A stretch of 64,000 nt of DNA from IMG/VR virus record IMGVR_UViG_3300021430_000595; one strand, written 5' to 3'. The first letter of the stretch is position 1. Each line of letters opens with the position of its first letter. This document shows, in pieces, positions 17,209 to 29,079 of this stretch. This stretch comes from a virus. The position numbers and the translations under genes were made by a program. The notes under the pieces are model-generated. The model made no database searches. It had not been told where the DNA came from and saw only the letters and a program-made list of their open reading frames with translations.

Positions 17209-17823
17209 TGGAGGTGGAGGGATTCGACAAATCTTGGACTATATCATCATCCTCATGGGATGTCGGACGCTAATGTGGTATTACGATAGAAGCGTCTATC
17301 ACCCACTAGTCTCTGCACCTTCCTGTTCCTACCAGGCTTGGCTCAGGGTTGTCTTATAAAAAGGTTTTCCCTGAATTCATCCGATTTTCGACACACCTCT
17401 CGATGTGAAGGGGCTCGAGTTAACCCTCGTCTTGCTCGCCATACCATAAATGGACTACACGTTTATTCGGTTAATTCACAACCGACAAATATCAAGTTCC
17501 TATTTTGACATCGTTACTTGAAACTGTGTCGAGTTCACTTTCACTTCTTTCGAAGATTTATAGGTAGTCCTCTGAACGAAACCCTTGACACTCTAAGTGG
17601 TATCACACTATAAGGACTTCTGTTCCTAGGTTATATGTCCGTCGACCCGGGGTGACACCCAATTTGATTAGGCTGCCACTTTAGAAGTTGCAAGTAAACC
17701 TGCCACTTCCATGTTGTTGTAAACGTTGCCGTTTAGATTTTTCCACCATTTATTAAAGTCGTAGATGAAGTCCGACTACGTGCCCATGTACACTATCAAC
17801 GCCAATCAATTCCATTCACCCCC
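17209..17823 (-). ncRNA. ssrA: tmRNA interrupted by a group I intron; tag frame 17730..17668 encodes GNVYNNMEVAGLLATSKVAA*
   Basis: Acceptor GGGGGTG/CACCTCC-A with G3.U70; spliced T-arm GAGGG-TTCGAAT-CCCTC; tag ends AA*; smpB nearby. Confidence 0.92.
17228..17422 (-). mobile_element. Group I intron (195 nt, no ORF) in tmRNA T-loop
   Basis: P AATTCAGGGAA, Q AACCCTGAGCCAAG, R CAGAGACTA, S GATATAGTCC; 5' exon ends U, intron ends G. Confidence 0.9.
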
Positions 17824-18721: not shown

Positions 18722-19168
18722 TTATTTCACATCCAAAAGTTTAGAAATTGCTTCTAACTCCATTTCTGCTTTTAACTCAGGTGTGATAATTGCATTTAAA
18801 CGAGCTTCGATTTCCGCAAGTTCTTTACGTTTTTCTTGGATTGAAATTTGATTTACACGAGTTTGGAAATCGTCTTTCCATTCTTCAACAGTAAACCCTA
18901 ACCATGTGAATTTGTAATCCACACCAAGTTCATTAGCTGCACTCTCTGATTTATCTTTTCTTTCCATCAAGAAAGCGTACATCTCAACCAATTTACGAAC
19001 ATCAGTAACCGTTGCGATTTGTGTTCTGTCATGTGCTGAGTTGGCTGAATAACCAAAGTTACCACTTGTTTTCCAACAAGGTCTCTCTGCTTTTTCAATT
19101 GCTAATTTTTTCTCTTGTACTAAGTCAAATAACTGTTTAACTTTAGCATCTGTTGTTTTTGTTGCCAT
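18722..19168 (-). CDS. Hypothetical coiled-coil protein
   Basis: 148-aa ORF followed by hairpins and terminator. Confidence 0.65.
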   Translation of the reverse strand: MATKTTDAKVKQLFDLVQEKKLAIEKAERPCWKTSGNFGYSANSAHDRTQIATVTDVRKLVEMYAFLMERKDKSESAANELGVDYKFTWLGFTVEEWKDDFQTRVNQISIQEKRKELAEIEARLNAIITPELKAEMELEAISKLLDVK

Positions 19169-19202
19169 AATTGTTGTTTTTTTTTGTTGTTTATTATGTT
19201 GT

Positions 19203-19838
19203 TTATTCTTTTAATCTTCCTCTATACCACCCATTGGGTATTTCAGAATCTTTTTTTACTTTTTTATTTTCAATACCATTTGTTATCCAAATTGTACCAA
19301 ACTGTGAATTTTTTTCACCTTGATTTTTAGGTTTAGACATTTTTTGTTTTGATTCTTCTTTATGTTTTTTACCTAACCAGTGTTGGTTTCCTTTTCCTGA
19401 TTCACTTAATTTTTTAGATAGTCGACTTTTCCATTCTTGATTATTTTTATATAACCATTTAAGTTTTTCAGTCCCTTTAATACTATTTATTTTAGCATTT
19501 TCTTTTGCCTTTTGAAAAAAAAATATCCTATGTTCTTCAGATGAAAACCCACCTTCACCGCCTTGTTTAATATTTAAACACATTGAATCTTTCAAAATAT
19601 TTTCATTTACTAACTCTTTTTCTCTATCTTTTAAAGAACGTCTATCAGGTAAAAATTCTAAAATTTCACATTTAAAATTTTCTTTACCATATTTCTTGAT
19701 TGAGTACCATAATCTTTTTCCACTCCCCACATAACCATCGTTTAAATTATCTGTGGAATGCATTCCTATGTAATATTTTCCATTTATAAGATTTATCGTT
19801 TTATAAATGTAATGATAATTCTTTTGTTTTCTTCCCAT
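19203..19838 (-). CDS. GIY-YIG (Seg-like) homing endonuclease with NUMOD3-like motif
   Basis: YIYKTINLINGKYYIGMH, YVGSG, GKKHKEESKQKMS; start moved to ATG 19838. Confidence 0.85.
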   Translation of the reverse strand: MGRKQKNYHYIYKTINLINGKYYIGMHSTDNLNDGYVGSGKRLWYSIKKYGKENFKCEILEFLPDRRSLKDREKELVNENILKDSMCLNIKQGGEGGFSSEEHRIFFFQKAKENAKINSIKGTEKLKWLYKNNQEWKSRLSKKLSESGKGNQHWLGKKHKEESKQKMSKPKNQGEKNSQFGTIWITNGIENKKVKKDSEIPNGWYRGRLKE

Positions 19839-19875
19839 ATTAATAAATATGGGAAGATGGTACAAAAGTTCAAGG

Positions 19876-19998
19876 TGGGGAGGGTGGGATTCGAACTCCA
19901 CGACCACGAGGTTAACAGCCTTAGAAGTAACTAAGCTTATAGCCGTATGTACAGAAATTAAACCAGTAATACGTGCTCTACCACTGAGCTACCTCCCC
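19876..19998 (-). tRNA. tRNA-Asn(GTT)-like gene with a 50-nt structured insertion (19922..19971) in the anticodon stem
   Basis: Acceptor GGGGAGG/CCTCCCC, D-arm GCTC/GAGC, CG[insert]AGG-CTGTTAA-CCTCG, TTCGAAT T-loop. Confidence 0.8.
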
Positions 19999-20003
19999 GA
20001 GTA

Positions 20004-20599
20004 TACCGGAAAATGAGCGAGTGAGTTTTCATTTTTGGATTGAATTTTAGAAGTAACTCAACTCGTAGCCGGTAAAAGATTTTAAGATGGTAATTATTTG
20101 TCTAAAATAAAATCCCTTTTGAGGATTCTATAGGATTCGAACCTATTATAACCATAGAAGTAAGACAAAATGTAGCCATCAAATATTTTAATATTCAAAG
20201 AACTAAAGTAAATGGAAATCGTGTCAGTGATGTTTCAGTAAAAGTGAAGTTTAGAAGTAACTGAACACATAGCCATTAAGTTTTTTAAAGTGGAAAGTCC
20301 ATAACTAATTGATGTTTTCGGAATCATAGAAGTAAGTTACATGGATAGCCACCCAATAAGGTGGACGGAAAGAGTATGAGTAATAAACATCCAATTGTTG
20401 ATAGAAGTAACTACATACATAGCCGTCAAATGAGTTTATGTGGAGATTGTGTGTCTAACGTTGTATCTGATAGTTGTATGTTAGAAGTAAGACCCTTGCA
20501 CCGATACTTTTGTCAATTCTAAGACCCAAAACAGAACCACTCCGTGGTTTAGTGTGATGGGTGGTAGACTATCCTCTCGGTGACTCACATAGCCACATA
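20004..20599 (-). ncRNA. Array of six related stem-loop RNAs: 20004-20074, 20086-20180, 20211-20277, 20290-20352, 20364-20427, 20437-20599
   Basis: Each has a closing helix, GGCTA, bulged helix, invariant TTACTTCTA and variable distal domain; helices covary. Confidence 0.85.
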
Positions 20600-20629
20600 T
20601 AATATTTTCAAAGAACTTAATGGGTGATG

Positions 20630-22702
20630 TTACACACCCATTAATTTTCCTGTTTCTTCATAAGAGTAACAGAAGTCCTCGTACTTGAAGAATGTGTCAA
20701 CATTCTCGTCAAGAGTAACTTGTTTACCACGACCTTCTACGTGTAGAAGAACAAGGTCATACACACTTACTTTCGGTAACTCAGCGTATTGTTGAATTGC
20801 TTTAAGAGTGTTTTTAAAGTCACTTCTTGCGGTTACGAAACCATCAGAATCAATATCCAACATGATGTACTCCTTAGTCACCAAATCAATAATCGCGATT
20901 AACGTATTAGTTGATTTAGATTCCAATGATTGACAATTTGAAATTGTCTCAGGTAACCATGTTTTGTTTGACTCAGGATGTTCTCTCTCCATGATACCGA
21001 AAGATGTTTCAAGTGTATCCAAACCACGACCATTGAAGTTTCTCACGTCAATAACTGCATATTTGTAACCATTCTTCAACGCATCTTGGATATCGATGTC
21101 GATATACTCAGCACAAGGTCCTTTTCTGTGTCTCACATCACCTGAGTGAACCGATTTACCAACTCTCAAGTTACTGAAAGAAAGTACATCACTTCTTTTC
21201 TCACCAACAAAGGTAACACTCAAATCTAAGTCTTCAGAACCTCTTTCGTCCATCCAATGAACAAACGGTCTGATTACTTTTGCATCAGGGTTGTCAAGTG
21301 GAACTCTTTGACCTCTGATTGTAGGTTTAGTCGAGAAGTTCATACTTCTCATGTTGGTTGGTAGAGGTATTTTTTTCAATTCCTCATCAATCCAACAGTT
21401 ACCCAATGATTCCAATACTGAAAACTTTTCTCTAAGAGTTTCAAACAACTTAGAGTGGATAGTTTCAACAATTTGTTTTGGAATTGCTGGTAGGTTAGGT
21501 AACTCGGTACGTTTTCTCGCCCCTTTAATCATAATTGACCTATTTGTTTTAGGTTCAGTACGACCTTCAAAGTGTGAGTAAACTTCAAACAATACTTTGT
21601 TTGATGTACCTTTTACCGCCTCACCGAAGTACTTCATGATAAGTTCAATATCTTTTGGATATGTACGAACCAACCAATCAATTCTACGTGAGAATTCACC
21701 CGGTTTTTGAGATAAAACTCTCAAACCATTCTCCAAACCTTTTTTGAATGATTCATTAAGTAAACCATACCAAGAAGTAACCTTCTCGTTACGAATCTTA
21801 TTGAACGCCACATAAGATTTAGGGAATTGATTTTTATATTCACCCGGGTGTAAAATTTCACCCAAACGAACCCATCTTTGGTCTCTTAAAACCATTTCAC
21901 GAGCATCACAGTTGGTTTGTTCAAGTAAACCTAAAATGTATTTTCTTTCTTTACGAGAGAATTTTTTGAATTTGAATTTCTCTCTTTCAGGATTCGTACT
22001 TGTACGAGATGACCATCTGTTCATCCTAACTTCTTTTTGAGGGACTTTAGGTAAAGAGATATCACCACCTGAAAGGTGAACTGCAATTCTCAACACATCG
22101 GTTGTGGTTTTAACAGGTAATCCTTCGATACCCATTGCAGCCAATGTACACAAGTTTTCTTTGAATGGAATTGATTCCGGGAAAACAAGTTTATCACCAC
22201 TGTTCACAAACCATTTAACAATCTCAAGGTCTTGAGGTGTTAATGATGTGTTGATTGACACCAAATCAGTGAAGATTTTTGAGAATCTTTCTGATGTACC
22301 ATACTTAATCAAATTGTATTTGATTTTCTCGAACTTAATGTCCTTTTCGTATGTGTGGGTTGATGGTTCCCATTGACCGTTACTCCAATAGTGCATGATT
22401 GCGTTCATGTACAACTCAAAGTCCGACATCACCATAACTTCTTGTGGGAAGTTTTTATATAATGGTTGGTAATTGCGTTTTCCACCCATTACATTTTTCA
22501 AATGATTCAGAACTTCGTCATTGAAGTTTTGGATAAACGATAAATCTGATTTGGATAATTCGAAGAAGGCATCTTCGTCTAACATGTATCCCCATTGCAT
22601 TAAGTGGGATTGTACTGTTGCTACCGCGATTCTATTGTCCATACCATCGTTTGGAGGACAAACTAAACCTTTTTGGAAGGCTACCAAGTTTCTTGTTGTC
22701 AT
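20630..22702 (-). CDS. 690-aa protein with helical N-region and C-terminal TerD-like domain
   Basis: FVHW..DLDLS..HSGD..AEYIDID resembles TerD fold; own promoter TACCTTTG at 22740-22747. Confidence 0.65.
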   Translation of the reverse strand: MTTRNLVAFQKGLVCPPNDGMDNRIAVATVQSHLMQWGYMLDEDAFFELSKSDLSFIQNFNDEVLNHLKNVMGGKRNYQPLYKNFPQEVMVMSDFELYMNAIMHYWSNGQWEPSTHTYEKDIKFEKIKYNLIKYGTSERFSKIFTDLVSINTSLTPQDLEIVKWFVNSGDKLVFPESIPFKENLCTLAAMGIEGLPVKTTTDVLRIAVHLSGGDISLPKVPQKEVRMNRWSSRTSTNPEREKFKFKKFSRKERKYILGLLEQTNCDAREMVLRDQRWVRLGEILHPGEYKNQFPKSYVAFNKIRNEKVTSWYGLLNESFKKGLENGLRVLSQKPGEFSRRIDWLVRTYPKDIELIMKYFGEAVKGTSNKVLFEVYSHFEGRTEPKTNRSIMIKGARKRTELPNLPAIPKQIVETIHSKLFETLREKFSVLESLGNCWIDEELKKIPLPTNMRSMNFSTKPTIRGQRVPLDNPDAKVIRPFVHWMDERGSEDLDLSVTFVGEKRSDVLSFSNLRVGKSVHSGDVRHRKGPCAEYIDIDIQDALKNGYKYAVIDVRNFNGRGLDTLETSFGIMEREHPESNKTWLPETISNCQSLESKSTNTLIAIIDLVTKEYIMLDIDSDGFVTARSDFKNTLKAIQQYAELPKVSVYDLVLLHVEGRGKQVTLDENVDTFFKYEDFCYSYEETGKLMGV

Positions 22703-22794
22703 ATCTGTCGTATTAAATTGTTTTATTAATGTAGTTGTACAAAGGTACGAAACATTTTTAAATTGTCAAGTTTTTTTTAAACTTTTTTTTTTCT

Positions 22795-22869
22795 TGGTGG
22801 CTCCGGTGGGGTTCGAACCCACGACTATCGGTTTTAGAGACCGTAATGTTACCACTACACTACGGAGCC
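22795..22869 (-). tRNA. Amber suppressor tRNA, anticodon CTA
   Basis: Cloverleaf GGCTCCG/CGGAGCC-ACCA; loop CT-CTA-AA in Trp-like arm CGGT/ACCG. Confidence 0.88.
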
Positions 22870-22871
22870 AT

Positions 22872-22945
22872 TGGAGGTCGGGGATGGATTTAAACCACCG
22901 TAAAAAAGCTTGCGGCTTTTCACCTAATCGCTCGGTCACCCGACC
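22872..22945 (-). tRNA. Atypical tRNA-Cys(GCA)
   Basis: U73-CCA; loop CC-GCA-AG lacks U33; T-loop TTTAAAT. Confidence 0.6.
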
Positions 22946-23015
22946 ATTTGTGATTGACAATATCTCTACCATCAATCACAGTACAATATTAGAGATTAGT
23001 TATGATATCTCCAAA

Positions 23016-24029: not shown

Positions 24030-24470
24030 TTATACAAAATTTTTTATTTCTCTTTCAGAATCCCTCTTTTTAATTGTTTCTCTTTTATCATAGAGTTTCT
24101 TACCTCTAGCTAATGCAATTTCAACCTTAACCATACCATTATCACTAAAAAACAAACGATATGGTATGATTGTGATATTATCGGTCAACTCATCTTTTAA
24201 CTTAGTTAATTCTTTTTTAGTTAAAAGAAGTTTTCTATCTCTTGTTGGAGAATGAGAGTAATGCGAACCATCACTTTGTATATTCATGTTCTTAATGAAT
24301 AATTCATGTCCATTGAAAACACAAAACGAATCCGTTAACGATGCTTTACCGGAACGAATAGATTTAACCTCACTACCGGTTAATTGAATACCAGAAATTT
24401 CGGTTCGAATAAATGAATACTCGAACCTTGATTTCCTATTTGTAATTGTTATGTTGGTTTTTAGTTTCAT
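24030..24470 (-). CDS. smpB: SsrA-binding protein
   Basis: NRKSRFEY, GIQLTGSEVKSIR, RKLLL, ARGKKLYDKRETIK. Confidence 0.95.
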   Translation of the reverse strand: MKLKTNITITNRKSRFEYSFIRTEISGIQLTGSEVKSIRSGKASLTDSFCVFNGHELFIKNMNIQSDGSHYSHSPTRDRKLLLTKKELTKLKDELTDNITIIPYRLFFSDNGMVKVEIALARGKKLYDKRETIKKRDSEREIKNFV

Positions 24471-24931
24471 TAGATTCTAACTAAGTGGTTTGCACTATAT
24501 GTTACCATTGCACCTTCGTGTTTGTATCTTACCTTGTAACCCATACCTTCAACCAAACCAACCGCTTGTCTTAAAACTTTGTTTGATTTGTATCTTGGGT
24601 CAGGGTTCAAATCGATATCAATCCAAGTTGCTTTTGGTAAATCGTTGTTTCTTAAAAGTTCTGCAACTTCAACCGCTTTCCAAACCTCACTCATAAGTCT
24701 ATATGATGTGTCCCTCTCAAATGGGGTCGTTTCTTTTGTACAAAGTACGTGTGCGCCTTTACCTTTAGTGTACAGAGCAATAACCACCCCATAAACAGTT
24801 TTTGAATTACTGAATGATTGTGAATCTGAACCAATCAGAATCTCAACATCGGATTTATCCGCTAGGTAGTCTTTGATGTAGGTGATAACATCTGTTATCG
24901 GTTTTCCGTACAATGTTTTAAACGTTTTCAT
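24470..24931 (-). CDS. RNase H-like YkuK (DUF458) family protein
   Basis: IGSDSQ, GKGA, RLMSEV, IDIDLN. Confidence 0.75.
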   Translation of the reverse strand: MKTFKTLYGKPITDVITYIKDYLADKSDVEILIGSDSQSFSNSKTVYGVVIALYTKGKGAHVLCTKETTPFERDTSYRLMSEVWKAVEVAELLRNNDLPKATWIDIDLNPDPRYKSNKVLRQAVGLVEGMGYKVRYKHEGAMVTYSANHLVRI

Positions 24932-25454: not shown

Positions 25455-25856
25455 TTATTTCTTATATCTTTCTTTCCTACCTTTACCTCTTCGACCAAAA
25501 AATTCAGTTAAAGAATGACAGTTAGGACAAAGTAATTCAACGTTTGATAAATCATGATTATGTGGATTTCCATCTATATGATTAATTTGGATTGGGACAA
25601 TTCCGGTGTATTCATTTACTTTATCCCATTCACATAACATACATTTCTCACCAAATTTTTCTATCAAATATTTTTTTGTTATTTCGTGGATGGTGTCACA
25701 CCTTGTATACCTTTCAAAATTATTTTCCTCTAAAGATTTGAAAATATTTTTTCTCTGATAATCAAACTGACATTTATTGTTACAATAAACATTTCTGTTA
25801 GGTATTTCACAACCACAATTCAAACATTGTTTTTCTTTTTTTTCTCTATTTCTCAT
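25455..25856 (-). CDS. HNH endonuclease between two tRNA-Gly genes
   Basis: CMLC, HIDGN, N-VELLCPNCH. Confidence 0.85.
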   Translation of the reverse strand: MRNREKKEKQCLNCGCEIPNRNVYCNNKCQFDYQRKNIFKSLEENNFERYTRCDTIHEITKKYLIEKFGEKCMLCEWDKVNEYTGIVPIQINHIDGNPHNHDLSNVELLCPNCHSLTEFFGRRGKGRKERYKK

Positions 25857-27427: not shown

Positions 27428-27435
27428 ATTTTTTG

Positions 27436-27519
27436 CTGACACGGTAGGATTCGAACCTACGATGTGGTTACCCAGTCAGGTTAACAGCCTGATGCTCTCG
27501 GCCTCTAAGCGACGTGTCA
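27436..27519 (-). tRNA. tRNA-Asn(GTT) with long variable arm
   Basis: TCAGG-CTGTTAA-CCTGA, G73, about 15-nt variable region. Confidence 0.85.
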
Positions 27520-28384: not shown

Positions 28385-29079
28385 CTTACCACTATAGTTT
28401 TCACTACCATCTCTGTTTGTGGTCTGGACTTTCTCTTAACCCTCATCTTAAAATGTTAGGGCTCTTCCCGTTAAGTCTCTACACGTTTCTTAAATGTTTT
28501 TCCCTCTATACGTATCTGTTTGTGAATGACAATTAGGACAAACTATTCGTAGATTTTCCAATCTATGATTTGTTCTATCACCATCGATATGGTCAAGTTC
28601 GAAACTTAATTTTTTACCATTCCAATCTTTAATTCCACAAACCTCACATTCCTCATTTTTTATTCCTTCACTAATCAACCTCAGTCTAAGTTTGTTAGTT
28701 TGATAATGTGGATGCGACCCCATCAAAATTTCTTTAGTTGGGATTTTACTTAGAGGAGAAGGTTTTGACGAACCTTTAGCGCCTTGATTTGGTTTATACA
28801 CACCAAGTTTTTTCGCTTTACGAATAAACGTGTTGTAATGTAATCCAAGTCTTATTGCCGCCTTAGCCATCGTTAACTCTTCTCTACATGCTTTGATAAT
28901 TTCACCATCTTCTATTTTTTTCATGAAACATTTGTTTCACTATAAATATATACACAATGGAAAAAGTATCTAACATGTCTACACATTTAAGACTTCGCTC
29001 GGGATTACCATTTTAAAGGTTTCCCCGAATTTGAGAAGTTCTACATTAAGTGTTTCCACCTACGCACTCAAATTTGTTT
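28385..29079 (-). mobile_element. Group I intron carrying an HNH endonuclease
   Basis: P AAATTCGGGGAAA, Q AATCCCGAGCGAAG, R GTAGAGACTT, S GAGAAAGTCC; U/G splice sites. Confidence 0.9.
28490..28924 (-). CDS. Intron-encoded HNH homing endonuclease
   Basis: CEVC, LDHIDGD, NLRIVCPNCHSQT. Confidence 0.9.
   Translation of the reverse strand: MKKIEDGEIIKACREELTMAKAAIRLGLHYNTFIRKAKKLGVYKPNQGAKGSSKPSPLSKIPTKEILMGSHPHYQTNKLRLRLISEGIKNEECEVCGIKDWNGKKLSFELDHIDGDRTNHRLENLRIVCPNCHSQTDTYRGKNI

What the first reader, a model, noticed from the sequence alone, without database searches (positions are those of the whole stretch)
19876..19998. tRNA-Asn with a circularly permuted array unit grafted into its anticodon stem
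Seen: removing 19922-19971 restores a normal cloverleaf (CG|AGG-CUGUUAA-CCUCG). The 50-nt insert reads UAUU-ACUGGUUUA-AUUU-CUGUA-CA-UACGG-CUA-UAAGCUUAGU-UACUUCUA. This is the same module with its normally open end closed and its normally variable end joined to the tRNA. It has no group I core. The discriminator is A (Asn normally G) and the T-stem has a bulge. Inference: a tRNA tethered to the partner protein, e.g. an anticodon-nuclease decoy or ligase substrate, or a snapshot of how Y-like RNAs arise from tRNA. A protein-spliced intron is the alternative.
Basis: partly seen in the sequence, partly recalled or inferred. Interest (0 to 1): 0.88.

Follow-up and report, generated by a model that had tools for sequence, protein, structure and literature searches.

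The report
tRNA carrying a protein-binding RNA handle
A giant phage of Bacteroidota encodes an otherwise normal-looking tRNA-Asn whose anticodon stem carries a 50-nt side arm; that arm is a rearranged copy of the "handle" shared by a row of small RNAs next to an unknown phage protein, so it looks like a new Y-RNA-like particle that holds a tRNA, not a classical intron.

Summary
Window 19876-19998 (minus strand) is a tRNA by Rfam (41.2 bits; gathering score 29). Deleting 19922-19971 gives a 73-nt tRNA-Asn(GUU).

The 50-nt insert is a circular permutation of an RNA module. That module frames 6-7 small RNAs in the 630-nt array just upstream (20003-20599). The module reads: closing helix, GG/CC, CUA/AUUU loop, bulged helix, UUACUUCUA. 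It is strongly supported by covariation and occurs only next to one gene, the 690-aa ORF at 20630-22702.

That protein is a helical domain plus a TerD domain. It belongs to a very large unannotated family. Ro60 structures give its longest structural alignments, but the scores are weak.

Relatives carry tRNA-handle chimeras in three topologies:
- handle inside the anticodon arm (15 contigs, 11 distinct sequences, six different anticodon loops);
- handle around a permuted, closed-acceptor tRNA-Asn-like RNA that hits Rfam YrlA below threshold;
- handle around a complete tRNA-Met.

Variable discriminators, drifting anticodons, no intron-less allele and no splicing enzymes argue against an intron.

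Best reading (about 0.55): a Y-RNA-like ribonucleoprotein handle that tethers a tRNA-shaped cargo to the protein. Excision as an intron remains possible (about 0.2). Function is unproven.

The same scan's first-stage notes had already flagged the array, on this same genome.

The parts
19972..19998 (-). tRNA 5' part: acceptor 5' strand, D arm, A26, C27-G28
   Evidence: Rfam tRNA alignment; ARAGORN on the deleted form
19922..19971 (-). 50-nt insert between tRNA positions 28 and 29: the circularly permuted handle
   Evidence: Deleting it restores a 73-nt tRNA-Asn; its MFE fold equals the module; pair counts on 9 homologous inserts
19959..19967 (-). Handle helix P2, 3'-type strand (ACUGGUUUA), preceded by the UAUU linker at 19968-19971
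   Evidence: Pairs with 19930-19939; 87.5% paired across 9 sequences, 3 pairs changed on both sides
19955..19958 (-). Internal-loop strand AUUU, opposite CUA at 19940-19942
   Evidence: Conserved loop in all canonical units (A3) and in the tRNA inserts (A4)
19943..19954 (-). Closing helix P1 (CUGU/ACGG) with a 4-nt loop; this replaces the open 5'/3' ends of array units
   Evidence: 100% paired in 9 sequences; MFE. A competing hairpin, C27-G28-UAU with AUACG, is also compatible (by reading alignment A4)
19930..19939 (-). Handle helix P2, 5'-type strand with a bulged U
19922..19929 (-). Unpaired junction strand, the end of the invariant UUACUUCUA motif, running straight into tRNA A29
   Evidence: Invariant columns in A3 and A4
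19876..19921 (-). tRNA 3' part: lower anticodon stem and CUGUUAA loop, variable loop, T arm with a bulged A, acceptor 3' strand, discriminator A
20003..20077 (-). Array unit 6 (canonical handle, small cargo); it ends 5 nt before tRNA G1
   Evidence: Covariance model R1, 69.2 bits; not in the training set
20084..20184 (-). Array unit 5: handle with a T-arm plus a closed acceptor-like hairpin as cargo
   Evidence: R1 48.8 bits; the hairpin after the T arm changes compensatorily between loci (by reading)
20209..20431 (-). Array units 4, 3 and 2 (20209-20281, 20286-20357, 20362-20431)
   Evidence: R1 77.2, 60.7 and 66.8 bits; covariation
20437..20599 (-). Array unit 1: handle with a long insertion at the helix bulge
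   Evidence: Partial R1 hit at 20453-20493; reading; conserved in relatives
20630..22702 (-). 690-aa partner-candidate gene: N-terminal helical domain plus C-terminal TerD domain
   Evidence: AF2 pLDDT 93; TerD Z 13.4; Ro60 structures Z 4.8-6.3 over 225-313 residues; handles lie beside it in all lineages
19830..19858 (-). Hairpin just after the tRNA (probable end of the RNA transcription unit); here it also buries the start codon of the endonuclease gene
   Evidence: Reading; relatives have a different hairpin at the same place

Best explanation
The locus encodes a chimeric RNA: a complete, L-shape-competent tRNA-Asn body with free acceptor ends, and a 50-nt side arm leaving its anticodon stem between positions 28 and 29. 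The side arm is the protein-binding 'handle' that all small RNAs of the adjacent array share. In the array RNAs the handle is formed by the 5' and 3' ends, and the variable cargo sits at the far end. In the tRNA the handle is closed by a loop and the tRNA is the cargo, so the tRNA keeps its own ends.

I infer three things. (1) The handle is bound by the neighbouring 690-aa helical+TerD protein. (2) The RNA stays unspliced. (3) It works like a Y RNA of the YrlA type: it tethers a tRNA-shaped ligand, with an Asn-type anticodon hairpin, to that protein. The role could be bait, adaptor or gate for tRNA-recognising factors.

Shown: the tRNA, the permuted module, its covariation, and its exclusive linkage to the gene across lineages. 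Inferred: protein binding, absence of splicing, and the biological role.
For: 1. The handle structure is real. 89.7% of cells pair and 116 are changed on both sides, against 37 in shuffles. G-U pairs fix the RNA sense as the minus strand.
2. The same helices hold in permuted order in 9 distinct tRNA chimeras and in the window's MFE fold.
3. Model R1 finds handles only directly beside the 690-aa gene. This holds in the window, in 14 related loci, in a 48%-identical lineage (L290, units just upstream of the gene), in a 31%-identical lineage (L146) and in a 60%-identical contig binned with Puia (L292).
4. In L146 a canonical handle frames a permuted tRNA-like RNA in the order T arm, acceptor closed by a UACG tetraloop, D arm. 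It also carries a hairpin with a UUGUUAA loop. It matches Rfam YrlA at 40.3 bits, E 1.2e-7, below the gathering score of 69.
5. In L292 a canonical handle frames a whole tRNA-Met with CCA (Rfam 65.6 bits), directly followed by a handle-in-anticodon-arm tRNA.
6. The chimeras do not behave like decoding tRNAs. The discriminator is A, C or G among the Asn-type copies, while the phages' ordinary tRNA-Asn all have G. Nearly identical backbones carry the loops UUGAAAA or AUUUGGA. Others carry AUUGCAA, UUGUAAA or UUCUAAA. T-stem bulges are tolerated.
7. They are extra copies. Relatives with and without a chimera both have ordinary tRNA-Asn genes.
8. The chimera is gained or lost as a whole unit. No intron-less allele was found at the locus or anywhere in IMG/VR.
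9. No RtcB, no archaeal-type splicing endonuclease and no TROVE gene is present in two near-complete relatives.
10. Precedent: M. smegmatis YrlA is cut by RNase P and receives CCA in vivo, which gives a Y stem attached to an open-ended tRNA-like domain (PMC4201824).
Against: There is no expression, binding or processing data.

The protein is not a TROVE/Ro60 member by sequence. Its structural likeness to Ro60 is within the noise for helical repeats (Z 4.8-6.3).

The handle lacks the GNCGAAN0-1G motif of YrlA.

Removing the insert restores a perfect 5-bp anticodon stem and 7-nt loop. The anticodon arm is invariant in all five Asn-type variants although their acceptor stems change. This is also what an intron-containing functional tRNA would show.

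The handle fold is weak without protein. A competing hairpin that uses C27-G28 is possible.
Confidence: 0.55

Rival explanations
1. The insert is a new kind of tRNA intron. The handle is recognised by a protein (perhaps the 690-aa protein plus a host or phage nuclease and ligase) or is an unrecognised ribozyme. It is cut at G28|U and A|A29 and the exons are joined to give a working tRNA-Asn. In array units the same cuts would release or circularise the cargo, as BHB motifs do in archaea and in Cyanidioschyzon permuted tRNAs.
For: Deletion restores an exact cloverleaf. The anticodon arm is invariant across five variants. A reciprocal permuted tRNA framed by the handle exists (L146), which formally parallels permuted tRNA genes. 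A weak RNA-ligase-family hit lies 10-20 kb away in relatives. The window's syntenic ordinary tRNA-Asn is an odd 85-nt form, so a second Asn tRNA could be useful.
Against: No BHB geometry is visible. No splicing endonuclease or RtcB is present in near-complete relatives. The protein shows no known catalytic fold. Linker lengths at both junctions vary between relatives. The L146 acceptor is closed by a stable UNCG-type tetraloop with only 6 bp. The discriminator is not kept. Anticodons drift in the 31/32-type chimeras, and in L292 the conserved junction strand itself fills the anticodon-loop position. No intron-less allele was found.
Confidence: 0.2
2. The handles are cis-acting processing or stability stems: leader-trailer duplexes that guide RNases or protect precursors. 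Cargoes such as the L292 tRNA-Met are simply released by RNase P and 3' processing. The window's chimera would then be a by-product with no role of its own.
For: In L292 the handle pairs the leader and trailer of a complete tRNA with CCA. Array units lie head to tail, with unit 6 ending 5 nt before tRNA G1.
Against: The invariant 9-nt single strand and the conserved asymmetric loop point to specific recognition rather than a generic stem. Most cargoes are 19-25-nt hairpins that are conserved as orthologues. The chimera is conserved, with compensatory changes, in 15 contigs.
Confidence: 0.12
3. It is a dead tRNA gene, disrupted by illegitimate recombination with an array unit, or by a small mobile DNA element, and drifting.
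For: T-stem bulge, non-canonical discriminator, redundancy with other tRNA-Asn genes.
Against: Acceptor and T stems keep pairing through changes on both sides in 9-11 distinct sequences. D and T loops are canonical. The same design recurs with different tRNA bodies, two insertion sites, and in lineages whose partner proteins are only 31-60% identical.
Confidence: 0.08
4. The repeated 23-nt motif acts at the DNA level (phage promoter, iteron or packaging site) and its presence in the tRNA is incidental.
For: A well-conserved, directly repeated motif spaced 75-126 bp apart.
Against: Long-range covariation between the variable N9 and a partner 20-100 nt downstream, with many G-U pairs that would be A-C on the other strand. 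The motif sits inside a transcribed tRNA.
Confidence: 0.03

Closest known systems
Bacterial and phage Y RNAs of the YrlA type with Ro60/Rsr (Rfam RF02553; Chen et al. 2014, PMC4201824)
   Same: Small RNAs are encoded next to the gene of a large helical protein. A stem made by the RNA ends carries a conserved asymmetric loop. The far end is a tRNA-like module (T arm, closed acceptor, D arm). There are several different RNAs per locus. A relative's unit scores 40.3 bits against YrlA. M. smegmatis YrlA is opened by RNase P and gets CCA.
   Different: The protein has no TROVE signature and ends in a TerD domain instead of vWA. The handle lacks the GNCGAAN0-1G motif and has its own invariant UUACUUCUA strand. 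There are arrays of 6-8 RNAs. Here the cargo is a complete, colinear tRNA with an anticodon hairpin, and the handle is the permuted part.
Archaeal and eukaryotic protein-spliced tRNA introns and permuted tRNA genes (BHB motif; Cyanidioschyzon merolae, Thermofilum; my own knowledge and PMC4090602)
   Same: An insert at a non-canonical position of the anticodon stem. The same structural module is found both inside a tRNA and around a permuted tRNA.
   Different: No bulge-helix-bulge geometry, no EndA or RtcB in the phage relatives, a bacterial-virus setting, variable junction linkers, and no evidence of cleavage.
Group I introns in bacterial and phage tRNA genes
   Same: An intervening sequence in the anticodon region of a tRNA, in a phage rich in homing endonucleases.
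   Different: 50 nt with no catalytic core. Rfam finds none here, but does find a true group I intron at 17218-17432. The insert is in the stem, not the loop.
Circularly permuted (two-piece) tmRNA genes (my own knowledge)
   Same: Gene-level circular permutation of a tRNA-like RNA, with both arrangements functional in different lineages.
   Different: A different RNA family. No protein-binding handle is shared with an RNA array.

Membership tests
tRNA (Rfam RF00005) | Cloverleaf scoring above the family's gathering score | tested here: met
   41.2 bits against 29, model positions 1-71
tRNA (decoding tRNA-Asn) | Contiguous anticodon arm, G73 discriminator (AsnRS identity, established knowledge), regular 5-bp T stem | tested here: not met
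   50-nt insert at 28/29, A73, bulged A in the T stem. N73 is A, C or G among relatives, while ordinary phage tRNA-Asn have G
Group I intron | Conserved catalytic core (P3-P9) detectable by RF00028 | tested here: not met
   No hit in 19000-23000 at E<=1. RF00028 does hit 17218-17432. The insert is only 50 nt
BHB (protein-spliced) tRNA intron | Two 3-nt bulges separated by a 4-bp helix at the exon-intron borders | tested here: not met
   The MFE and comparative structure show a three-way junction with 4-nt and 8-nt linkers and no BHB
BHB (protein-spliced) tRNA intron | Splicing endonuclease (PF01974) and RtcB-type ligase available | tested here: not met
   Neither is found in two near-complete related phage genomes. 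Host enzymes were not testable
Y RNA / YrlA (RF02553) | Covariance-model score at or above the gathering score | tested here: not met
   No YrlA hit in window 19000-23000 at E<=1. The related unit in L146 scores 40.3 bits against 69
Y RNA / YrlA | Encoded next to a Ro60 (TROVE) gene | tested here: not met
   The neighbouring gene has no TROVE match. There is no TROVE gene in relatives
Y RNA / YrlA | Ro60-binding motif GNCGAAN0-1G in the 5' strand of the terminal stem (PMC4201824) | tested here: not met
   The handle 5' strand is GG-CUA-helix; the motif is absent (alignment A3)
Y RNA / YrlA | Terminal stem with a conserved loop plus a tRNA-like cargo domain | tested here: met
   Covarying handle. 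Cargoes seen: T arm plus closed acceptor (unit 5), full tRNA (window, L292), YrlA-like domain (L146)
Ro60 / TROVE protein | Ring of HEAT-like repeats closed by a C-terminal metal-binding domain | tested here: inconclusive
   1yvp, 9l5y and 2nvo give the longest alignments (225-313 residues), but Z is 4.8-6.3 and rmsd 4.3-5.8 A
TerD domain | TerD beta-sandwich fold | tested here: met
   Residues 473-640: Z 13.4 to 2qz7 and Z 12.0 to 2kxt; Foldseek probability 1.0; profile E 0.007 to 3ibz

The most novel reading that the evidence does not exclude
This is a previously unrecognised, widespread phage ribonucleoprotein class. One protein-binding RNA handle is wired to real tRNAs in all three possible topologies: at the acceptor ends, inside the anticodon arm, and around a permuted closed tRNA. 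On this reading it is a living series of intermediates between tRNAs and Y-type RNAs. Alternatively, it is the first protein-dependent tRNA splicing/permutation system of a bacterial virus.
Probability: 0.3. Interest if true: 0.92.

Novelty: new variant of a known kind. Interest (0 to 1): 0.8.

Why it matters
Y RNAs and their tRNA-like domains are thought to derive from tRNAs, but no intermediates are known. Here one handle is attached to full tRNAs, to a permuted closed tRNA and to minimal T-arm modules within one gene family's neighbourhood, which makes that origin directly testable.

The partner protein family has about 2400 clusters at 50% identity, has no annotation, and would gain a first functional context.

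If the chimera is unspliced, it is a new way for a phage to present a tRNA to cellular or defence factors. If it is spliced, it is a new kind of tRNA intron in the bacterial world.

Tried and rejected
- **Promoter or iteron reading of the 23-nt motif.** Rejected because of long-range covariation with G-U pairs.
- **Group I intron and known small ribozymes.** No Rfam match at E<=1.
- **BHB intron.** No such geometry.
- **Close phage records.** Only the SegB-like endonuclease gene matches known phages, at about 67% DNA identity. No whole genome is held for the window.
- **The search for related loci.** It failed with the protein alignment and found nothing with two distant homologues. The L146 protein found only itself. 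GTDB genomes gave one contig, through P0117.
- **ESM Atlas on the helical domain.** Uninformative.
- **Other over-long tRNA hits in relatives (109-140 nt).** They turned out to be a different element without the handle.
- **Adding L139 and L292 to the chimera alignment.** MAFFT misaligned their handles, so they were read by eye only.
- **Literature.** Searches found no description of this system.

Full report
**What is there**

On the minus strand, 19998 to 19876, Rfam aligns a complete tRNA: 41.2 bits against a gathering score of 29, with a 63-nt gap inside the anticodon arm. ARAGORN does not call it. When 19922-19971 is removed in silico, ARAGORN calls a 73-nt tRNA-Asn(GTT) with a perfect 5-bp anticodon stem and the loop CUGUUAA. 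The D and T loops are canonical, the discriminator is A, and the T stem has one bulged A. The insert therefore lies between tRNA positions 28 and 29, in the 5' strand of the anticodon stem. It has no group I core; Rfam finds a genuine group I intron elsewhere, at 17218-17432.

**The array and its module**

The window is AT-rich phage-like DNA with more than 27 tRNA genes. One ORF carries a T9SS sorting domain, which points to a Bacteroidota host. No whole genome is held for it.

A 630-nt non-coding stretch lies between a 690-aa ORF (20630-22702, minus strand) and the tRNA. It carries the motif GGCTA-N9-TTACTTCTA six times, always on the minus strand and nowhere else in the window. The seventh, last copy is inside the tRNA insert.

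Reading the units and their relatives gives one architecture:
- a closing helix made by the unit's two ends, finishing in GG/CC;
- an asymmetric internal loop, CUA opposite about four nucleotides (mostly AUUU);
- an 8-9-bp helix with a 1-2-nt bulge;
- an invariant unpaired UUACUUCUA;
- a variable cargo.

On 31 units from 14 loci, 89.7% of cells form standard pairs, and 116 cells are changed on both sides against 37 in column shuffles. Partners slid by 1-3 columns reach at most 47% paired. Frequent G-U pairs show that the structure belongs to RNA of the minus-strand sense. That excludes a promoter or iteron reading.

**The insert is the same module, circularly permuted**

In the tRNA the order is: 3'-type strand of the bulged helix, AUUU, closing helix shut by a 4-nt loop, GG-CUA, 5'-type strand, then the junction strand running into A29. 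The minimum-free-energy fold of the 50 nt alone is exactly this, but it is weak (-5.9 kcal/mol, z -0.28).

Across nine distinct tRNA+insert sequences the two handle helices are 87.5% and 100% paired, with four pairs changed on both sides. The acceptor and T stems covary as well.

A competing local hairpin (C27-G28-UAU with AUACG) is also compatible in the Asn type. It is not shared by the other chimeras, so I give it less weight.

**Linkage to one protein**

A covariance model of the canonical unit (R1) finds units only directly next to the 690-aa gene. This holds in five settings:
- the window;
- 14 related loci, 75-96% protein identity, jumbo-phage contigs up to 310 kb;
- L290, 48% identity, two units ending about 30 nt before the start codon;
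- L146/L291, 31-33% identity, two units just upstream;
- L292, 60% identity, a 420-kb contig binned with a Puia MAG.

The protein family is very large: 2401 clusters at 50% identity. It has no Pfam domain.

AlphaFold2 gives a confident model, pLDDT 93. Residues 473-640 are a TerD fold (Z 13.4 and 12.0; Foldseek probability 1.0; profile E 0.007). For the N-terminal helical part, three Ro60 structures (1yvp, 9l5y, 2nvo) give the longest alignments, 225-313 residues. However, Z is only 4.8-6.3, which the tool's own notes place within the noise for helical repeats. A Ro60-like architecture is therefore a lead, not a result.

**Three topologies of tRNA-handle chimeras**

1. *Handle inside the anticodon arm.* This occurs in 15 contigs and 11 distinct sequences.
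   - Insertion at 28/29: the GUU type, five variants.
   - Insertion at about 31/32: the loops read UUGAAAA, AUUUGGA, AUUGCAA, UUGUAAA and UUCUAAA. In the last of these, the handle's conserved junction strand itself fills the anticodon-loop position.
2. *Canonical handle around a permuted tRNA-like RNA (L146).* The order is: a hairpin with the loop UUGUUAA, T arm, 6-bp acceptor closed by a UACG tetraloop, then D arm. Rfam aligns this to YrlA at 40.3 bits, E 1.2e-7, below the gathering score of 69.
3. *Canonical handle pairing the leader and trailer of a complete tRNA-Met(CAU) with encoded CCA (L292).* Rfam scores it 65.6 bits and ARAGORN calls it.

Window unit 5 carries a T arm plus a closed acceptor-like hairpin. 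Its stem changes compensatorily between loci.

**Intron or permanent arm?**

Several observations argue against a decoding tRNA that needs splicing:
- The discriminator is A, C or G among close Asn-type relatives. The phages' ordinary tRNA-Asn genes all have G, which is an AsnRS identity element (established knowledge).
- Nearly identical backbones carry different anticodons.
- T-stem bulges are tolerated.
- The chimeras are extra copies beside ordinary tRNA-Asn genes.
- They are present or absent as whole units: 12 of the 23 loci lack them. No intron-less allele exists at the locus or in IMG/VR.
- Junction linkers vary in length.
- There is no BHB geometry.
- Two near-complete relatives lack RtcB, archaeal-type endonuclease and TROVE genes.

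Two observations argue for splicing. Deletion restores the cloverleaf exactly. The Asn anticodon arm is invariant, and a GUU-type loop recurs in the distant L146 lineage. So the Asn-type hairpin matters for something.

I therefore favour a Y-RNA-like particle in which the handle binds the helical+TerD protein and presents tRNA-shaped cargo (0.55), over an intron (0.2). The processing-stem, pseudogene and DNA-motif readings rank lower.

The precedent that makes this plausible is M. smegmatis YrlA. RNase P opens it and CCA is added in vivo, which leaves a Y stem attached to an open-ended tRNA-like domain (PMC4201824).

**Comparison and novelty**

The system works like Ro60/YrlA but fails the membership tests. 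It has no TROVE domain, no GNCGAAN0-1G motif, and scores below threshold or not at all against RF02553.

I found no description of a helical+TerD protein with an RNA array, or of a tRNA carrying such a handle, in the searched literature.

I class it as a new variant of a known kind. There is a real chance (about 0.3) that it is a new class, or a new splicing system.

**Limits**

Everything about binding, processing and function is inferred. The sample of chimeras is small (11 sequences).

Noticed in passing
window 19203-19838 (-) and hairpin 19830-19858: A GIY-YIG/NUMOD3 homing endonuclease gene, about 67% DNA identity to T4 segB, sits right after the chimeric tRNA. Its ATG (19838-19836) is buried in the 3' arm of the hairpin that follows the tRNA. 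Relatives with the chimera lack this gene.
   Followed up: partly
window 27435-27519 (-): The tRNA-Asn(GTT) in the syntenic slot of the main tRNA cluster is 85 nt, with a long variable arm and an odd D arm. Relatives have ordinary 73-75-nt tRNA-Asn genes there.
   Followed up: partly
window 22875-22945 (-): A second tRNA-like hit (Rfam 44 bits) lies right beside the amber-suppressor tRNA(CTA) at 22795-22869. ARAGORN does not call it.
   Followed up: no
window 20600-20625 and 20185-20215 (-): A conserved motif of the form TTAGTTCTTTGAA(A)ATATT precedes units 1 and 5, and also units in relatives. It may be a phage promoter inside the array. The 690-aa gene ends in a conserved hairpin that spans its stop codon (20617-20644).
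   Followed up: partly
L132 8272-8670 (+): A GOLLD RNA (Rfam 315.7 bits) lies about 1.5 kb downstream of the array in a 310-kb relative. None was found in the window.
   Followed up: no
L161 (G002:64240-64360, 65985-66105) and L162 (G001:213915-214023, 214258-214397): A different family of over-long tRNA-like RNAs (109-140 nt) with a shared acceptor and a large replacement of the anticodon region. They lack the handle motif.
   Followed up: partly
window 17218-17432 (-): A group I intron (Rfam 68.7 bits). Earlier first-stage notes place it inside a tmRNA gene. The relative L123 has an uninterrupted tmRNA (98 bits) at the matching place.
   Followed up: no
window 24030-24931 (-): SmpB and a YkuK-type RNase H-like gene lie between the RNA array and the tRNA cluster. 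HNH endonuclease genes are scattered among the tRNAs (25455-25856, 28490-28924).
   Followed up: partly
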